In this document: in pieces, positions 9,171 through 36,351 of the stretch | Position numbering within the stretch: position 1 is the first letter of the stretch | Layout of the letters: every line of letters starts with the position of its first letter | Source: Escherichia coli | GTDB lineage: Bacteria > Pseudomonadota > Gammaproteobacteria > Enterobacterales > Enterobacteriaceae | Assembly: GCF_024223415.1 (NCBI RefSeq) | Contig: NZ_CP100500.1 | DNA length: 64,000 nucleotides | Direction: 5' to 3' (one strand) | Notes under the pieces: generated by a model | Seen by the model: only the letters and a program-made list of their open reading frames with translations | Database searches by the model: none | Told to the model about the DNA's origin: nothing | Program-made: the position numbers and the translations under genes

Positions 9171-10358
9171 ATGAACTTATCCCTACGACGCTCTACCAGC
9201 GCCCTTCTTGCCTCGTCGTTGTTATTAACCATCGGACGCGGCGCTACGCTGCCATTTATGACCATTTACTTAAGTCGTCAGTACAGCCTGAGTGTCGATC
9301 TCATTGGTTATGCGATGACAATTGCGCTCACTATTGGCGTCGTTTTTAGCCTCGGTTTTGGTATCCTGGCGGATAAGTTCGACAAGAAACGCTATATGTT
9401 ACTGGCAATTACGGCCTTCGCCAGCGGTTTTATTGCTATTCCCCTGGTTGACAGCGTCACGCTGGTGGTACTTTTTTTCGCACTCATCAACTGCGCCTAT
9501 TCCGTTTTTGCCACAGTGTTGAAAGCCTGGTTTGCCGACAATCTTTCATCCACCAGCAAAACGAAGATCTTCTCGATCAACTACACCATGCTCAATATTG
9601 GCTGGACCGTCGGCCCGCCACTCGGCACGCTGTTGGTCATGCAGAGCATCAATCTGCCCTTTTGGCTGGCCGCTATCTGCTCTGCGTTTCCCATGTTTTT
9701 CATTCAAATTTGGGTAAAGCGCAGCGAGAAAATCATCGCCACGGAAACAGGCAGTGTCTGGTCGCCGAAAGTTTTATTACAAGATAAGGCACTGTTGTGG
9801 TTTACCTGCTCTGGCTTTCTGGCTTCTTTTGTTAGTGGCGCATTTGCTTCATGCATTTCACAATATGTGATGGTGATTGCTGATGGTGATTTTGCCGAAA
9901 AGGTGGTCGCGGTTGTTCTTCCGGTGAATGCCGCCATGGTAGTTACGTTGCAATATTCCGTGGGCCGCCGACTTAACCCGGCTAACATCCGCGCGCTGAT
10001 GACAGCAGGCACCCTCTGTTTCGTCATCGGTCTGGTCGGTTTTATTTTTTCCGGAAACAGCCTGCTATTGTGGGGTATGTCAGCTGCGGTATTTACTGTC
10101 GGTGAAATAATTTATGCGCCGGGCGAGTATATGTTGATTGACCATATTGCGCCGCCAGGAATGAAAGCCAGCTATTTTTCCGCCCAGTCTTTAGGCTGGC
10201 TTGGTGCCGCAATTAACCCATTAGTGAGTGGCCTAGTGCTAACCAACCTGCCGCCTTCCTCGCTGTTTATCATCTTAGCGTTGGTGATCATTGCTGCGTG
10301 GGTGCTGATGTTAAAAGGGATTCGTGCAAAACCGTGGGGGCAGCCCGCGCTTTGTTGA
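9171..10358 (+). CDS. ydeE: MFS transporter YdeE (dipeptide exporter), 395 aa
   Basis: 12-TM MFS profile; recognised sequence. Confidence 0.85.
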   Translation: MNLSLRRSTSALLASSLLLTIGRGATLPFMTIYLSRQYSLSVDLIGYAMTIALTIGVVFSLGFGILADKFDKKRYMLLAITAFASGFIAIPLVDSVTLVVLFFALINCAYSVFATVLKAWFADNLSSTSKTKIFSINYTMLNIGWTVGPPLGTLLVMQSINLPFWLAAICSAFPMFFIQIWVKRSEKIIATETGSVWSPKVLLQDKALLWFTCSGFLASFVSGAFASCISQYVMVIADGDFAEKVVAVVLPVNAAMVVTLQYSVGRRLNPANIRALMTAGTLCFVIGLVGFIFSGNSLLLWGMSAAVFTVGEIIYAPGEYMLIDHIAPPGMKASYFSAQSLGWLGAAINPLVSGLVLTNLPPSSLFIILALVIIAAWVLMLKGIRAKPWGQPALC

Positions 10359-31456: not shown

Positions 31457-31786
31457 CTATGCCACGACCTGTTCAAAATCTGCCGTTATGGTTACCCACA
31501 ACGCCCCCACGCTTGCCGACCATTTACGACAAACCACCCTGATCGGCTTCCAGTCATAAGGTGGCGTCCACTGAAATGCGCGGACGCCACCGTGCCGTTC
31601 CAGAAAGGCTTTTAAAGATGGGTGTTCACATTTACGAACACGTATCGTCACGCTGTAAATCGACAACTGGTTATTCAGTCCCGCCGCACGACGCTGTTCA
31701 TAACCATCGCCCAGCTTCACTGTCACCACTTTCGGCTCTGATACCACATTCATATCCGGGCGCACTTTCCAGTGAAACGTCTCCAT
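31457..31786 (-). CDS. M: Minor tail protein M, 109 aa
   Basis: Lambda gpM-like sequence and length. Confidence 0.9.
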   Translation of the reverse strand: METFHWKVRPDMNVVSEPKVVTVKLGDGYEQRRAAGLNNQLSIYSVTIRVRKCEHPSLKAFLERHGGVRAFQWTPPYDWKPIRVVCRKWSASVGALWVTITADFEQVVA

Positions 31787-34700
31787 TACCGATATGCTCC
31801 ACTTAACCGACCACCATCACGGGCCTGCTGTTGCATAAAGTCCGCTGCCGCTTTTTTCCCAAGGTCATAAACCACCTTCAGGGCAGCCGGACCTATCTGC
31901 CCGTTCGTGCCATCGTTATTGATCTCGATGTTGTACTGCGGGGCAAACATCGCCATACCTGAACCACCAATATCCGCCACAACCCCCAGCTTACCGTCAG
32001 CACCACGACGCAGTGGCAGAATGGCTTCAGGTCCAGCTTCCCCCATCACACCCGCGCCTTTTGCAAAAGCAAAAAACGTCGGACGGTTAACCACCGTGCC
32101 ACTGTAACGACTCAAATCAGCAGACTGATAAATCCCCCCATTGGCATTCAGGGAAAGGCTGCTGAGATCAAATCCCAGTACACTGCCAATCCCTTTTATC
32201 GATTTCATCATGGTTGCCTGCGCCAGGATTTTCGCCATATCTGACAGCACCGAAGAGGTGAAGGATTTGAAGTTGAGTTTGCCGGTAGTGACAAAAGTTG
32301 CCAGGCCATTTCCCATGTTGCTGAAGGCTGATGAGAACACCTGTTCTGCTGTTCCTGCCGTATTGTCTGCATCCACGGTAAAATCCTGAAATGCACGCAG
32401 GACTCCGTTTTTCCAGTTACCCTGCACAACTTCAAGCTGTTGCCAGTAACGGCGATTCTCATTCAGTTGTCGGTTCAGGCTCTCCGTCAGCGCCTGCTCG
32501 GCCTTTCTGTAGTCATCCGTGTTATATGTCCCTTTCTGCTCACTATCCCGCCTCAACTGCTCCAGCTGTTGCTGGTATTTCTGGCGAAGACTCAGTTGTA
32601 CCTGATATCGCTGCCGCTGCTGATCACCCATACCCACCGTGGCGATATCCAGGTCATGTTGCTGACGCTGAGCGCGCTCTTCTTCAGCCAGTTGACTGGT
32701 CAGCTGAATTGTTTTTTTCTTCAGATCGTTGAGTGCCGTTTGTTTCTGAAGCTCCTGCTGTTTTACATCCAGCAGCGTCAGTGCCTGAATCAGTTCATCT
32801 TTACGGGCCAGCACACTCTTTTCATCTGCCGTCAGTTTTTTCCCGTCCAGGTCGCTGATGCGCTGCTGCAGAGCCAGAAGCTGTTTATGCGCTTCTGTCA
32901 TCCTGTCAGTGGCAATGCCTGCTGACTGTCTGGCAGCAGCAATCTGCCCTTCCACCTGTGCCTGTTGCTGGCTGTACTGCAGCAATAACCGGGTGGCCTC
33001 ATCATTACGGGTTTCGCGTGTTTTTTTCTTACCGGATGCCAGGGCTTTCTCGTAACGTTCATTTTCACGTTGTATCGCCGCATCCCTGACAGCCTGATCG
33101 GCGTACTGCATGGCATTAATACGCGCAATTTCACGCTGATGTCGTGCTGCTTCCGTTTCATTCATCCGGTTCAGTGCAGCATTTTCAGCATTACGGCGTT
33201 TCTGTTGCTCCTGATAATTCCGCTCTGCCTGCTCTTTTGCATCCTGCAAATCCTTCTGGCGTTTTTTCTCCTGAAGCTCGTTAAGACGCTGCTGATCGTA
33301 TTCAACCTGAGAAGATGATGCCGTCCAGGGGAGTCTTTTCGCCCGCGATACTTTCTCCTGCAAAGTGGCAATCTGCGCATCCAGCGAATCTTCACGACCA
33401 ATATTCATGGCCGCATCCCAGAACTGCTTCCACCAGTCAGACAAGGTTTGCAGCGTACTACCCAGCGCATTGAGGTTATTATCAATATCCGCAGTACGCC
33501 GACCGGTTTCCTCTGCCAGTGCAGACATGGCTATCCGTGCCGCATCACTGGAGCGCCCCTGCTCTCCAAGGACGCGTATCTGCTCAAGCTGAGTGGCAGT
33601 AAGAAAATGCAGCTCATTGTCCAGAGCCTTCGCGGCATTTACAGGATCATCCTTCAGCCGCTTAAACTGATTTATGGTATCGCTGATCGACTGGCCAACC
33701 GATCGCTCCATCTGTGCGGCAGCTCTCGCCACCATACCGATATCGTTTCCACGAAATGCACCACTCCCCACCACCTGAGCCAGCGCACCGGCTGCAGCAT
33801 GTTGCGTGATACCATTCCCGGAAATAGCACGACTGAGCGTCCACAGCTGCCCGGCAGTGACTCCGGCATAATGCCCCGTCAGCGACAGCTGGCGGTTAAA
33901 TTCTTCCCCCTCCTTCTGACCGTCATACCAGGCTTTACCCAGACCATAGACGGCCGCGGTAATACCGCCAATAACCCCGCCCAGCATCATGCCTTTCGGT
34001 GACATCAGTGTGTCTATCCATCCGGCACGGTTAGCCAGCGTTATCCCGGATCCCCTCAGCGCCCCTAAATTGCCGCGGGCCAGTTCACCTATCAGAACGC
34101 CTATCTCCTGGCGGGCCGCTGCACTTTTCAGACCCAGCGAATGCGTGGCTTTTCCTGCCCGCTCCATTTTGCGGATATACACTTCTGCAGCACTGCTTAC
34201 CCCCAGCTGGGCAGCCCTGGCACGAAGCAACTCAGAAGAAGAAAGATTCTGGCGGGTTGCCTGCTCTTTAAGCTGACGGATAAACGCCACTTTCTGTCGG
34301 GTAGCCTCTGCCTCAGCCTGCGTAAGAACACGGGTTTTCGCCGTAACCTCAGAAATCAGCGCCAGATAATCCTGCTGACCAATCCCGCCACTGTTTCTGG
34401 CCTGTCGGATCTGCTGCTGAATACGCTGTAACTCCTGCAACCCCGCACTGGCCTGTTTCACACTGTCAATCTGACGATAAAACGCGGCAGCCGCTTTATC
34501 CTGAGCCTCCGCCAGAGCCATGGCCTGCGCCTGTTCCTCGCGCATTTTCTGGCTCAGCGCCTCCATGCGCTGGCGGGTTTTCTCCACCTCGCGGGCCATG
34601 CGTTCATGAGCCTGTGCGTTCTTCTCCACCGTCTGCGCATGGACGGATGCGGCTGTTGCAGCCGAAGAAGCCGCCTGCGTTGTCTGCCGGGCGGCCTGAG

Positions 34701-34851
34701 TCTGACGCTCCATAAAACGCTGCATACGGGCAGAAGACCGTTCTGCATCGCTGGCTGCACCATTCAGAAGGTTTTTGATACGGGGAATTTCATTTTTAAA
34801 TTCTGCCGCATCAATCCCCAAATCAATGACCAGGTTGGCTATCTGGTCCAT
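31786..34851 (-). CDS. H: Tail tape-measure protein H, about 1021 aa
   Basis: Start at MDQIANLVIDLGIDAAEF with GGAGGTG SD; long coiled-coil-rich ORF; conserved C-terminal NNDGTNGQIGPAALK. Confidence 0.9.
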   Translation of the reverse strand: MDQIANLVIDLGIDAAEFKNEIPRIKNLLNGAASDAERSSARMQRFMERQTQAARQTTQAASSAATAASVHAQTVEKNAQAHERMAREVEKTRQRMEALSQKMREEQAQAMALAEAQDKAAAAFYRQIDSVKQASAGLQELQRIQQQIRQARNSGGIGQQDYLALISEVTAKTRVLTQAEAEATRQKVAFIRQLKEQATRQNLSSSELLRARAAQLGVSSAAEVYIRKMERAGKATHSLGLKSAAARQEIGVLIGELARGNLGALRGSGITLANRAGWIDTLMSPKGMMLGGVIGGITAAVYGLGKAWYDGQKEGEEFNRQLSLTGHYAGVTAGQLWTLSRAISGNGITQHAAAGALAQVVGSGAFRGNDIGMVARAAAQMERSVGQSISDTINQFKRLKDDPVNAAKALDNELHFLTATQLEQIRVLGEQGRSSDAARIAMSALAEETGRRTADIDNNLNALGSTLQTLSDWWKQFWDAAMNIGREDSLDAQIATLQEKVSRAKRLPWTASSSQVEYDQQRLNELQEKKRQKDLQDAKEQAERNYQEQQKRRNAENAALNRMNETEAARHQREIARINAMQYADQAVRDAAIQRENERYEKALASGKKKTRETRNDEATRLLLQYSQQQAQVEGQIAAARQSAGIATDRMTEAHKQLLALQQRISDLDGKKLTADEKSVLARKDELIQALTLLDVKQQELQKQTALNDLKKKTIQLTSQLAEEERAQRQQHDLDIATVGMGDQQRQRYQVQLSLRQKYQQQLEQLRRDSEQKGTYNTDDYRKAEQALTESLNRQLNENRRYWQQLEVVQGNWKNGVLRAFQDFTVDADNTAGTAEQVFSSAFSNMGNGLATFVTTGKLNFKSFTSSVLSDMAKILAQATMMKSIKGIGSVLGFDLSSLSLNANGGIYQSADLSRYSGTVVNRPTFFAFAKGAGVMGEAGPEAILPLRRGADGKLGVVADIGGSGMAMFAPQYNIEINNDGTNGQIGPAALKVVYDLGKKAAADFMQQQARDGGRLSGAYR

Positions 34852-35173
34852 AACGCACACCTCCGGAAATACCTTCCCCAAGATGCATCAGTTCTTCGTC
34901 CGTTCGCTCCGGTATCCCGTTCTCTTCCGGTAAAAGGCTGAAATCAGCCACCGCAGCATCACTGCTGCCGGACACCATTCTCACGATCAATGCCTTCAGC
35001 GAGGCAAACTGCGCATCCATCCACACATCACTGAAGCTCTGCATCCGGAAATAATCGCCCCACTCACCAAGCTCAGTGGCCGACATTTCCGACAGCATCC
35101 GCCGCCAGTCTGCCCGCCTGAACTCCCGGGCAAGCCGCATGACAAACTGCATTTCCCGCGTCAGGACTTTTCC
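34823..35173 (-). CDS. T: T segment of the tail assembly chaperone G-T fusion (expressed by -1 frameshift from G)
   Basis: ORF in the -1 frame relative to G, open across the end of G; position identical to lambda G/GT. Confidence 0.65.
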   Translation of the reverse strand, partial: GKVLTREMQFVMRLAREFRRADWRRMLSEMSATELGEWGDYFRMQSFSDVWMDAQFASLKALIVRMVSGSSDAAVADFSLLPEENGIPERTDEELMHLGEGISGGVRYGPDSQPGH

Positions 35174-35589
35174 GGCGTCAGCACCTCATGCTCCAAATCC
35201 CCGACATTCTCAATGGCTCCCATACCGCTCAGCGACAGAACCATCTCCGCCCCCGCTCCCAGGGCATCATACGACCATGTTGTAATAACGGATGCGCAAA
35301 GCGTCTCAACATCCTGAGACTGTTCCGCATTCCACAGTGAGCGGGAAACCAGCCAGGCATTGATATCCATCCCCATCCGTAGAAAAGCAATCTGTCGTTC
35401 AGCCTCCGGCAGTTCTCCCTCTTCGGCATCAAACTTTGCCGTTCGCTGCTGAACAAACGCCAGATATTCAATTCTCTGCAGCCCGGACAGCTCACTGAGC
35501 ACCACGGACTGCTTTTCATAATTAAACGTGCCCTGTTTCAGAAACATCATGTTCTCCACCTGCAAAAAAGCCCCGGATAATCGGGGCAA
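35161..35589 (-). CDS. G: Tail assembly chaperone G, 142 aa
   Basis: Position between V and T/H; size as lambda gpG. Confidence 0.8.
   Translation of the reverse strand: MPRLSGAFLQVENMMFLKQGTFNYEKQSVVLSELSGLQRIEYLAFVQQRTAKFDAEEGELPEAERQIAFLRMGMDINAWLVSRSLWNAEQSQDVETLCASVITTWSYDALGAGAEMVLSLSGMGAIENVGDLEHEVLTPEKS
35167..35173 (-). other. Candidate -1 programmed frameshift site GGAAAAG near the 3' end of G
   Basis: Minus strand reads ccG GAA AAG tcc tga in the G frame; lambda uses G GGA AAG at the equivalent position. Confidence 0.4.
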
Positions 35590-35607: not shown

Positions 35608-36351
35608 TTAACCTGCGGCGCTGACGGCCACCGTAGCCACTGCCACAAAATCGCCGTCAGAAGTCATGCCCACAATGCTGACACTGCCCTGCTTCACGCC
35701 TTTCACCGTGACCACAAGCCCGTTCAGGGTCACCGTGGCAGTCTGTGGATCTGTCGAATGCACACTGATCGCTTTGTCACTGGCTCCGTCAGGTTTTACT
35801 GTAAAGGTCAGCGTGGTGGTTGCTCCCACTTTTACACTGGCAGATGCCGGTGCCACCGTCAGCCCGGTAACGCCCACGATTTCAGTGCCTTCTTCTGCCA
35901 GATACGGACGCCCCACACCGCTGATTTTCACTGTGCGGGTCATCACGTCTTTTGAGGCAATGGTTTTACCCAGTGAACTCAGCCAGCCACGGAAAACATC
36001 AACAGTACCGTTGGGATATTTGATACGAAACGCGCAGACTTCACCGGAGTCGAACAACTGAACCAGTTTTTTCTGCCCGCTGTCACCCGGACGCCAGGCC
36101 AGCGTCGCCGAAGTATCACCGACGGATTTCTGCCCCTGGGTTGTCGTTTTCCAGTCTGCATCTTCATCATCGAGATAAGTGTCATCTTCTGCATCAGCGG
36201 TCATTTCGCCAGGCTGCAGATCCTTCACCATCGCAAGACGCAGCCAGTCAGTGTCCGATAAAGGGTTCGCAAACGCATCGCCCTTGCCGGTGTACATCCA
36301 GAACGTCGTTCCCGCACCTTTCGTTTTTGCCAGTGGATTTGGTGTGGTCAT
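35608..36351 (-). CDS. V: Major tail protein V with C-terminal Ig-like domain, 247 aa
   Basis: Start at MTTPNPLAKTKGAGTT; lambda gpV-like throughout. Confidence 0.9.
   Translation of the reverse strand: MTTPNPLAKTKGAGTTFWMYTGKGDAFANPLSDTDWLRLAMVKDLQPGEMTADAEDDTYLDDEDADWKTTTQGQKSVGDTSATLAWRPGDSGQKKLVQLFDSGEVCAFRIKYPNGTVDVFRGWLSSLGKTIASKDVMTRTVKISGVGRPYLAEEGTEIVGVTGLTVAPASASVKVGATTTLTFTVKPDGASDKAISVHSTDPQTATVTLNGLVVTVKGVKQGSVSIVGMTSDGDFVAVATVAVSAAG

What the first reader, a model, noticed from the sequence alone, without database searches (positions are those of the whole stretch)
35150..35180. Tail chaperone G-T -1 frameshift site differs from the lambda heptamer
The T frame is open across the end of G in the -1 frame, as in lambda, but the overlap contains GGAAAAG rather than lambda's GGGAAAG. 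Lys-tRNA slippage on A-AAG is still plausible, but the P-site codon would not re-pair perfectly, so frameshift efficiency, and with it the G to G-T ratio, may differ.
Basis: partly seen in the sequence, partly recalled or inferred. Interest (0 to 1): 0.35.

Follow-up and report, generated by a model that had tools for sequence, protein, structure and literature searches.

The report
Known variant G-T tail-chaperone frameshift site
This E. coli prophage most likely makes its tail-assembly G-T fusion protein by a ribosome slipping back one base at GGAAAAG instead of lambda's GGGAAAG, but this variant is the commonest form in the gene family and is already annotated in phage N15, so it is ordinary.

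Summary
On the minus strand, G (35547..35161) ends CCG GAA AAG TCC TGA. The T frame is the -1 frame and is open only from 35185. That leaves a 25-nt window in which a shift can work, and G_GAA_AAG (35173..35167) is the only slippery candidate in it. The site is exactly homologous to lambda's G_GGA_AAG: the T-frame products align without gaps from the slip site.

The variant is not unusual. In 149 of 150 related loci, an in-register A_AAR sits 12 codons before the conserved T motif, and the preceding codon varies (GGA, GAA, GCA, GTA). GGAAAAG fills most deep clades, while lambda's canonical heptamer is limited to two. Phages phi80, mEp043 and Gifsy-2 carry GGAAAAG. The N15 GenBank record explicitly labels GGAAAAG as "slippery sequence for -1 translational frameshift".

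The most likely mechanism is a -1 slip of tRNA-Lys on A_AAG, with tRNA-Glu re-pairing imperfectly on GGA. No conserved downstream RNA structure or upstream Shine-Dalgarno-like stimulator was found. Published E. coli data rank this sequence as much less slippery than G_GGA_AAG, so a lower G-T:G ratio is plausible but untested.

One practical point: thousands of E. coli records annotate T as a free-standing 109-aa protein, and the fused product is absent from protein databases.

The parts
35161..35547 (-). Gene G, the tail assembly chaperone (128 aa, MFLKQ...TPEKS, stop TGA at 35163..35161).
   Evidence: Pfam PF06894 Phage_TAC_2, E 2e-39. PGAP calls the same CDS 'phage tail assembly chaperone G'. 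Translation checked.
35167..35173 (-). Slippery heptamer GGAAAAG in register G_GAA_AAG. The core is the A_AAG tetramer at 35170..35167.
   Evidence: Homologous to lambda G_GGA_AAG by ungapped alignment of the T-frame product. Invariant in all 62 close relatives. A_AAR is present at this offset in 149 of 150 loci. The same heptamer is annotated as the slippery sequence in N15.
35161..35185 (-). The 25-nt overlap window in which both the G frame and the T frame are open. A productive -1 shift must occur here.
   Evidence: It is bounded by the T-frame TGA at 35188..35186 and the G stop at 35163..35161.
35186..35188 (-). TGA in the T frame, which closes that frame upstream of the slip site.
34823..35167 (-). 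T-frame segment of the G-T fusion (114 codons, VLTREMQFVMRLAREF...DSQPGH, plus stop). The predicted G-T is 241 aa (G residues 1-127 plus these 114).
   Evidence: Pfam PF06223 Phage_tail_T, E 2e-14 on the fused product. Translation. The T-frame peptide is conserved from the first codon after the Lys in all lineages.
35150..35152 (-). ATG that PGAP and some phage records use as the start of a free-standing 109-aa T. It is probably just an internal Met of G-T.
   Evidence: Anti-SD pairing upstream is only -1.1 kcal/mol. This ATG is replaced by CGG in relative L064 and by CTG in lambda, and most other lineages have no start codon there at all.
35182..35187 (-). Shine-Dalgarno-like GAGGTG, 8 nt 5' of the heptamer and 11 nt 5' of A_AAG. 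It is a possible but unproven stimulator.
   Evidence: Duplex with the 16S 3' end is -9.3 kcal/mol, in the top ~10% of windows in its own G gene. It is not conserved in sister lineages (GAGGCG -6.8, CAGGTT -3.7). The review gives 9-14 nt as the effective spacing for -1 shifts.
35608..36351 (-). Gene V, the major tail tube protein, upstream neighbour (synteny context).
   Evidence: Pfam Phage_TTP_12 E 1.5e-66 plus Big_2.
31786..34851 (-). Gene H, the tape measure protein, downstream neighbour. Its ATG at 34851 overlaps the 3' end of T by 29 nt.
   Evidence: Pfam TMP_2, Tape_meas_lam_C and TMP_4. PGAP start. Sequence.

Best explanation
This is the programmed -1 ribosomal frameshift site of a lambda-type G/G-T tail assembly chaperone pair in an E. 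coli lambdoid prophage of the mEp460 / cdtI / Ayreon type.

Most ribosomes read G to its UGA and make the 128-aa chaperone. A minority slip back one base at G_GAA_AAG. The driver is tRNA-Lys (anticodon mnm5s2UUU) moving from AAG to the overlapping AAA. The neighbouring tRNA-Glu would then face GGA, pairing G-C, G.U, A-U, so its re-pairing is imperfect. Shifted ribosomes next read GUC and continue through the T frame to give a 241-aa G-T fusion (...TPEK|VLTREMQF...).

By analogy with lambda, G-T would link the tape measure protein to the tail tube protein.

Shown here: the anatomy, the homology of the site, its fixed position, and conservation of the A_AAR core. Inferred: that slippage happens and that tRNA-Lys drives it. 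Not resolved: whether the shift happens with Lys in the A site (co-slipping with tRNA-Glu) or in the P site (waiting for Ser-tRNA), and what the efficiency is. It is probably lower than on lambda's heptamer.
For: 1. G, T, V and H are identified by Pfam in lambda order.
2. T is in the -1 frame. The overlap is only 25 nt and G_GAA_AAG is the only candidate in it.
3. The G-T junction aligns without gaps with lambda's proven site: GKVFDGELSFALKLAREM against GKVLTREMQFVMRLAREF.
4. CC GGAAAAG TC[C/A] TGA is invariant in 62 relatives down to 65% protein identity, while the 5' flank diverges.
5. Across 150 loci from Escherichia, Salmonella, Serratia, Xenorhabdus, Providencia, Ewingella and metagenomes, an in-register A_AAR sits 12 codons before LARE..DW in 149. 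The overlap can be as short as 16 nt.
6. The T-frame peptide is conserved from the first codon after Lys. Most lineages have no start codon between the slip site and the LARE motif, so T cannot be made on its own there.
7. Viable phages carry the same heptamer: phi80, mEp043, Gifsy-2 (identical ACG CCG GAA AAG TCC TGA) and Providencia PSTCR8lys. N15's record labels GGAAAAG 'slippery sequence for -1 translational frameshift'.
8. A_AAG is the best -1 tetramer in E. coli, and NNA_AAG shifting is used naturally by B. subtilis cdd and IS1222.
Against: No product was observed here. In a purified E. coli system G_GAA_AAG gave mainly 0-frame product at all EF-G concentrations. In vivo, A_AAG without a stimulator was barely above background (about 0.15% against 0.11%) and needed a strong pseudoknot to reach 5.6%.

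No stimulator could be shown. The downstream fold is not significant (z = -1.0). Nothing is conserved across 20 lineages (-1.5 kcal/mol, 0 covarying pairs). The upstream SD-like element is not conserved.

Synonymous-site conservation at the three freely evolving codons is only marginal within the clade (p about 0.05). Public annotation treats T as a separate gene.
Confidence: 0.85

Rival explanations
1. T is made as a free-standing 109-aa protein from ATG 35152, as annotated. Ribosomes that terminate at the G stop 8 nt upstream would re-initiate there (translational coupling). No frameshift would be needed.
For: PGAP and several phage records annotate exactly this CDS. The 109-aa protein is in a cluster of 1,148 members seen on more than 1,000 contigs. 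The ATG lies 8 nt after the UGA, a distance compatible with re-initiation (established knowledge). The ATG is conserved within the closest clade.
Against: There is no SD: anti-SD pairing is -1.1 kcal/mol. The ATG is CGG in L064 and CTG in lambda, and most other lineages have no ATG/GTG/TTG between the slip site and the LARE motif. Even so, the T-frame residues upstream of it (V-L-T-R-E) are conserved. In lambda, function requires T joined to G (review). N15 and Gifsy-2 curators annotate the frameshift.
Confidence: 0.08
2. The shift is a classical tandem (two-tRNA) slippage in which P-site re-pairing of tRNA-Glu on GGA through a central G.U pair contributes materially. GGAAAAG would then behave as a weakened X_XXY_YYZ heptamer rather than as a bare A_AAG tetramer.
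For: The base before the P-site codon is G in most lineages, so the first-position G-C pair is kept after the shift. PRFect authors propose the same G:U re-pairing of tRNA-Glu on GGA for other tail-chaperone sites. Peng et al. saw that EF-G mutants raise shifting on G_GAA_AAG in parallel with G_GGA_AAG.
Against: Lineages with P-site codons that cannot re-pair centrally (GCA to GGC, GTA to GGT), or with A or C instead of the first G (AGAAAAG, CGAAAAG, CGTAAAG), occupy the same site. So P-site re-pairing is not a conserved requirement. The only invariant is A_AAR.
Confidence: 0.3
3. The site is a decayed lambda heptamer in a defective prophage. G-T is no longer made, or is made at a useless level.
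For: The in-vitro and reporter data show low intrinsic slipperiness. Some related loci are clearly decaying: L036 has lost G, L005 and L031-33 have truncated T, and the symbiont L069 has GGTAAAG with a broken G.
Against: The same heptamer is fixed in about 2,000 E. coli copies, and none has the GGGAAAG allele. It occurs in isolated plaque-forming or inducible phages (Ayreon, mEp460, cdtI, phi458, phi80, N15, Gifsy-2). It is spread over most deep clades of the family. G, T, V and H are all intact here.
Confidence: 0.03

Closest known systems
Bacteriophage lambda G / G-T programmed -1 frameshift (Levin, Hendrix & Casjens 1993; Xu, Hendrix & Duda 2004, 2013, 2014, as summarised in the Atkins et al. 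2016 review, PMC5009743)
   Same: Homologous G and T domains (Pfam PF06894, PF06223). Same gene order V-G-T-H. T is in the -1 frame. The slip site is at the homologous codon, and the product is ...GK/EK-V... No downstream RNA structure is evident in either.
   Different: The heptamer is G_GAA_AAG rather than G_GGA_AAG, so the P-site tRNA is tRNA-Glu with a central G.U after the shift. The G stop is 1 codon after the Lys codon (5 in lambda). The overlap window is 25 nt (64 in lambda). There is a GAGGUG 8 nt upstream that lambda lacks.
Phage N15 genes 14/15 (NC_001901, misc_feature 10027..10033 'slippery sequence for -1 translational frameshift'), with phi80 and mEp043
   Same: Identical heptamer GGAAAAG at the homologous position of the same G/T family.
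   Different: The context is GCG GAA AAG CCC with the G stop 5 codons downstream, and the T domain is lambda-like. These phages belong to a different clade of the family (one search places the related L070 next to lambda).
Salmonella phage Gifsy-2 STM1039/STM1041.1n ('part of G+G' frameshift hybrid protein')
   Same: Identical junction ACG CCG GAA AAG TCC TGA, with T 52% identical.
   Different: Different host genus. The record gives T as a separate CDS beginning at the frame opening, not as a joined feature.
A_AAG (NNA_AAG) single-tRNA -1 frameshift sites: B. subtilis cdd A_CGA_AAG, IS1222 G_CGA_AAG; systematic E. coli data in Sharma et al. 2014 (PMC4066793)
   Same: Only the Lys codon is slippery. 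The shift occurs close to the end of the upstream ORF. An SD-like element lies upstream in some cases.
   Different: The 5' codon here is GAA rather than CGA. No pseudoknot or hairpin stimulator was found.
PRFect 'twofour' / 'twoonefour' non-canonical slippery motif classes for tail assembly chaperones (McNair et al. 2024, PMC10885494)
   Same: GGAAAA fits the 'twofour' pattern, and the sister lineages' GGCAAAA fits 'twoonefour'. The G:U re-pairing idea is the same.
   Different: Those classes were derived mainly from actinobacteriophage annotations, not from this enterobacterial G/T family.

Membership tests
Lambda-type G / G-T tail assembly chaperone with programmed -1 frameshift | Upstream ORF is a gpG homologue | tested here: met
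   Pfam PF06894 Phage_TAC_2, E 2.2e-39, residues 2-113.
Lambda-type G / G-T tail assembly chaperone with programmed -1 frameshift | Downstream ORF is a gpT homologue in the -1 frame, overlapping the end of G | tested here: met
   PF06223 Phage_tail_T, E 2e-14 on the fused product. Frame and 25-nt overlap established.
Lambda-type G / G-T tail assembly chaperone with programmed -1 frameshift | Located between the major tail tube gene and the tape measure gene | tested here: met
   V (Phage_TTP_12) lies upstream and H (TMP_2, Tape_meas_lam_C) downstream.
Lambda-type G / G-T tail assembly chaperone with programmed -1 frameshift | In-register slippery sequence within the overlap, at the position homologous to lambda's | tested here: met
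   G_GAA_AAG aligns with G_GGA_AAG. The same offset holds in 149 of 150 loci.
Lambda-type G / G-T tail assembly chaperone with programmed -1 frameshift | A G-T fusion protein is made at a few percent of G and is required for tail assembly | not testable with these tools
   Needs a reporter assay, mass spectrometry or genetics. The exact fused sequence is absent from the 15-billion-protein collection.
Canonical X_XXY_YYZ tandem-slippage heptamer | Positions 1-3 identical and positions 4-6 identical, so both tRNAs re-pair in the -1 frame | tested here: not met
   Positions 1-3 are G,G,A. tRNA-Glu would face GGA, a second-position mismatch.
Z_ZZN tetranucleotide (A_AAG) single-tRNA -1 slippage sites | In-register A_AAG read by the single E. 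coli tRNA-Lys | tested here: met
   A_AAG at 35170..35167 in the G frame.
Z_ZZN tetranucleotide (A_AAG) single-tRNA -1 slippage sites | A stimulator is present: an upstream SD-like sequence at 9-14 nt, or a downstream hairpin or pseudoknot | tested here: inconclusive
   GAGGUG lies 8 nt from the heptamer and 11 nt from A_AAG, at -9.3 kcal/mol, but it is not conserved in sister lineages. There is no significant or conserved downstream structure.
'Shifty stop' sites (stop codon directly 3' of the shift codon) | The stop codon immediately follows the slippery codon | tested here: not met
   In this window UCC separates AAG from UGA. The feature is met in many sister lineages...AAG TAG...AAA TAG...AAG TAA.

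The most novel reading that the evidence does not exclude
In the lambda G/T family the conserved recoding signal is not the textbook X_XXY_YYZ heptamer. It is G-N-A_A-A-R, a single tRNA-Lys slip after any GNA codon. Lambda's canonical heptamer would then be a derived minority state.

Lineages whose P-site tRNA re-pairs worst appear to compensate. GCA, or a first base that is not G, comes with a stop codon directly abutting the Lys codon. GTA comes with a strong SD-like element. G_GAA_AAG is almost non-slippery in purified systems, yet phi80 and N15 use it without either aid. That would imply either that the required G-T:G ratio is far lower and more flexible than lambda's about 1:30, or that an unrecognised stimulator acts in vivo, such as the acidic G C-terminal nascent peptide or the stop-proximal context.
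Probability: 0.25. Interest if true: 0.45.

Novelty: already known. Interest (0 to 1): 0.18.

Why it matters
The biology is not new. It is a natural, already curated variant of a textbook recoding site.

There are two modest points of value:

1. **Annotation.** PGAP and most phage depositors call T as a stand-alone 109-aa protein from an internal ATG, in roughly a third of complete E. coli genomes. The real product, a 241-aa G-T fusion, is missing from protein databases.
2. **A natural experiment.** The family offers an allelic series at one homologous site: GGGAAAG, GGAAAAG, GGCAAAA, GGTAAAG, AGAAAAG and AAAAAAG, with the stop 0, 1 or 5 codons away. It could be used to ask how much P-site re-pairing, stop proximity and SD-like elements each contribute to low-level -1 frameshifting in vivo, and how tightly the G:G-T ratio must be held.

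Tried and rejected
- **Alternative slip sites upstream.** Excluded, because the T frame has a TGA 12 nt upstream of the heptamer.
- **GGGAAAT at 35157..35151.** It lies after the G stop, so it is irrelevant.
- **Downstream stimulatory RNA structure.** The single-sequence fold is not significant (z = -1.0). An alignment fold of 20 diverse lineages gave -1.5 kcal/mol with no covariation.
- **Upstream SD-like stimulator as a conserved feature.** Rejected. It is strong in some lineages and absent in others, including sister clades. The apparent trend (canonical heptamers weak, others stronger) rests on too few independent clades.
- **Synonymous-site conservation within the clade.** Only marginal: 38% of invariant-residue codons are identical anyway, giving p about 0.05 for the three free codons. 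I therefore relied on wider sampling instead.
- **Lambda-type allele in the same context in E. coli.** None found among about 1,835 records. Overall diversity of that 62-mer is too low to infer selection.
- **+1 shift at UCC_UGA.** It leads into the third frame, which closes after about 38 codons and is not T.
- **Transcriptional slippage.** Only four A's, so implausible (established knowledge).
- **Literature not reachable.** Xu et al. 2004 and Licznar et al. 2003, which has the NNA_AAG efficiencies, are not held. The PRFect supplement has no sequence list. A full-text search for GGAAAAG plus frameshift was mostly noise, apart from Peng et al. 2019.
- **Exact fused G-T protein in the 15-billion-protein collection.** Absent.

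Full report
**1. What is in the sequence**

The finding lies in a tail-gene block on the minus strand. Pfam identifies four genes in lambda order:

- V, the tail tube protein (Phage_TTP_12 plus Big_2), at 36351..35608.
- G (Phage_TAC_2, E 2e-39).
- T (Phage_tail_T, E 2e-14 on the fused product).
- H, the tape measure protein, from 34851.

G runs 35547..35161 and ends ACG CCG GAA AAG TCC TGA. The T frame is the -1 frame relative to G. It carries a TGA at 35188..35186, so the two frames are open together over only 25 nt (35185..35161, GGTGCTGACGCCGGAAAAGTCCTGA).

GGAAAAG occupies 35173..35167 in the register G_GAA_AAG. It is the only slippery candidate in that window.

**2. Is it the homologue of lambda's site?**

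Yes. In lambda the junction is GCG GGA AAG TGT... From the slip site onward the two T-frame products align without a gap: GKVFDGELSFALKLAREM in lambda against GKVLTREMQFVMRLAREF here.

The difference is a single G-to-A change at heptamer position 3. In the G frame this changes Gly to Glu. In the T frame it is silent (GGG to GGA).

**3. More than chance?**

The heptamer by itself is not informative. It occurs 17 times in the window against about 10 expected. An in-register A_AAR in seven codons has a naive probability of about 0.05 (my calculation). The evidence is comparative.

- In 62 related viral contigs spanning 99% to 65% protein identity, CC GGAAAAG TC[C/A] TGA is invariant while the 5' flank diverges.
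- Within that clade the synonymous-site signal is only marginal, p about 0.05, so I sampled further. One scan covered species-representative genomes and one alignment-based scan covered viral contigs.
- Over the 150 loci in which the junction could be located, 149 have an in-register A_AAR exactly 12 codons upstream of the conserved T motif LARE..DW. The exception is a contig end.
- Overlap windows range from 16 to 85 nt and always contain this site.

**4. The family picture**

The codon before the Lys codon varies. The heptamers seen are GGGAAAG, GGAAAAG, GGCAAAA, GGTAAAG, AGAAAAG, CGAAAAG, GGGAAAA, GGAAAAA and CGTAAAG, plus AAAAAAG in VT1-Sakai. The P-site codon is GNA in every locus except VT1-Sakai, where it is AAA.

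After de-replication at 70% G-T identity, GGAAAAG holds 9 clusters, GGCAAAA 3, GGGAAAG 2 and GGGAAAA 1. On a T-domain tree GGAAAAG occupies most deep clades. The canonical lambda form is confined to the lambda/E. albertii clade and a Serratia/Symbiopectobacterium clade.

Serratia has ACG CCG GGA AAG TCT TAG, the same context as this window but with the lambda-type heptamer.

The G stop lies 0, 1 or 5 codons after the Lys codon. Wherever the Lys codon is AAA, TAG follows directly.

So 'differs from lambda' is true, but lambda is the minority state.

**5. Already known**

Classic phages carry GGAAAAG at this site:

- phi80 and mEp043 (GCG GAA AAG CCC);
- Providencia phage PSTCR8lys (CTG GAA AAG TAG);
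- Gifsy-2, whose junction ACG CCG GAA AAG TCC TGA is identical to this window's.

Gifsy-2's record names T 'part of G+G' frameshift hybrid protein'. The N15 record carries a misc_feature 'slippery sequence for -1 translational frameshift' at 10027..10033, which reads GGAAAAG.

PRFect (PMC10885494) already lists 'twofour' and 'twoonefour' motif classes for tail-chaperone frameshifts and discusses G:U re-pairing of tRNA-Glu on GGA.

The module in this window is itself very common. It is 97-99.8% identical in 17 phage records (mEp460, cdtI, Ayreon, phi458, Tritos and others) and is present in 1,846 of 5,426 complete E. coli genomes.

**6. How it most likely works**

The invariant element is A_AAR, so the conserved event is a -1 slip of tRNA-Lys from AAG to AAA. 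E. coli has a single tRNA-Lys for both codons, and A_AAG is the most shift-prone tetramer.

The 5' codon modulates the level. For NNA_AAG, tRNAs with looser wobble behaviour free the third-position A for tRNA-Lys. Here tRNA-Glu would face GGA after the shift, pairing G-C, G.U, A-U. That is imperfect but the best of the non-canonical options.

Sites whose P-site tRNA cannot re-pair at all (GCA, GTA, or a first base that is not G) occupy the same position. P-site re-pairing is therefore not a conserved requirement.

I could not resolve whether the slip happens with Lys in the A site or in the P site.

I found no conserved stimulator:

- Downstream folding is insignificant here (z = -1.0) and unconserved across 20 lineages.
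- An upstream GAGGUG lies 8 nt from the heptamer and 11 nt from A_AAG. At -9.3 kcal/mol it is in the top ~10% of windows in its own G gene, and it falls in or near the 9-14 nt range quoted for -1 stimulation. It weakens or disappears in sister lineages, and phi80 and N15 have none.

**7. Efficiency**

- Peng et al. 2019 (PMC6924986) used exactly G_GGA_AAG and G_GAA_AAG in a reconstituted E. coli system. The first shifted readily when EF-G was limiting. The second gave mainly 0-frame product at every EF-G concentration.
- Sharma et al. 2014 (PMC4066793) found tetramers alone barely above background (about 0.15% against 0.11%). A_AAG reached 5.6% only with a strong pseudoknot. G_GGA_AAG was among the three best heptamers.

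A lower G-T:G ratio than lambda's is therefore plausible, but it is unmeasured. The viability of phi80, N15, Gifsy-2 and the mEp460 group shows that whatever level is reached suffices.

**8. The rival: a stand-alone T**

PGAP and several phage records start T at ATG 35152, 8 nt after the G stop. That 109-aa protein sits in a cluster of 1,148 members, whereas the exact 241-aa fusion is absent from the 15-billion-protein collection.

Four points argue against this rival:

- The ATG has no SD (-1.1 kcal/mol).
- It is CGG in relative L064 and CTG in lambda.
- Most lineages have no start codon at all between the slip site and the LARE motif.
- The T-frame residues upstream of it are conserved from the first codon after Lys.

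Re-initiation may occur as a side reaction in this clade, but it is not the conserved route.

**9. Verdict**

The site is real, correctly described and correctly interpreted. It is also ordinary: a curated, widespread variant of the lambda G-T frameshift. The residual value is an annotation correction, plus a natural allelic series for studying low-level -1 frameshifting.

Noticed in passing
window 35587..35570 (minus strand), then T-run to about 35564: An intrinsic-terminator-like hairpin, GCCCCGATTATCCGGGGC followed by TTTTTT, lies in the V-G intergenic space. The same element is annotated as a terminator in Ayreon, mEp460 and N15, and HK97 has one after its major tail gene. It probably lowers G/T/H transcription relative to V.
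   Followed up: partly
window 35152..34823 (minus strand); L001-L003: T is systematically annotated as a free-standing protein, 109 aa from ATG 35152 (or 87 aa in Ayreon). None of the records inspected for this module (one E. coli genome by PGAP, phages Ayreon and mEp460) annotates a slippage join. The exact fused G-T sequence is absent from the 15-billion-protein collection, while the 109-aa form has a cluster of 1,148 members.
   Followed up: yes
window 34851..34823 (minus strand): The tape measure gene H starts at ATG 34851, inside the last 29 nt of T. Its SD (GGAGGTG) is embedded in the codons of the conserved T C-terminal motif GISGGVRYG.
   Followed up: no
L067, L086, L092-L098, L102, L116-L118, L121, L128, L129, L139 (junctions): Wherever the slippery Lys codon is AAA rather than AAG (GGCAAAA, GGGAAAA, GGAAAAA), the G stop TAG follows immediately and the first -1 frame codon is ATA. 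This looks like a 'shifty stop' arrangement with tRNA-Lys in the P site.
   Followed up: partly
L134, L135, L138 (junctions): The GGTAAAG/CGTAAAG lineages have the poorest P-site re-pairing and a stop 5 codons away. They also have the strongest upstream anti-SD complementarity (GGGGAGGA, -11 to -13 kcal/mol). This suggests compensation, but they form only one clade.
   Followed up: partly
L160 (VT1-Sakai, AP000400.1): The Stx1 phage of O157 Sakai has the dnaX-type heptamer A_AAA_AAG (TCA AAA AAG) at the homologous G-T site.
   Followed up: partly
L036, L005, L031-L033, L069: Several related loci look like decaying prophages. In L036 G is almost entirely deleted. T is truncated in L005 and L031-L033. 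The insect-symbiont locus L069 has a broken G and GGTAAAG where its intact relative L071 has GGGAAAG.
   Followed up: no
L076 (JAIJJM010000220.1, 'MAG: Collinsella sp.') and MW057783.1 ('Campylobacter phage CJLB-4'): A contig binned as Collinsella carries a G-T junction and overlap window identical to E. albertii's. A 'Campylobacter phage' record matches the query T domain with the same identity, score and near-identical coordinates as lambda. Both look like contamination or mis-binning.
   Followed up: no
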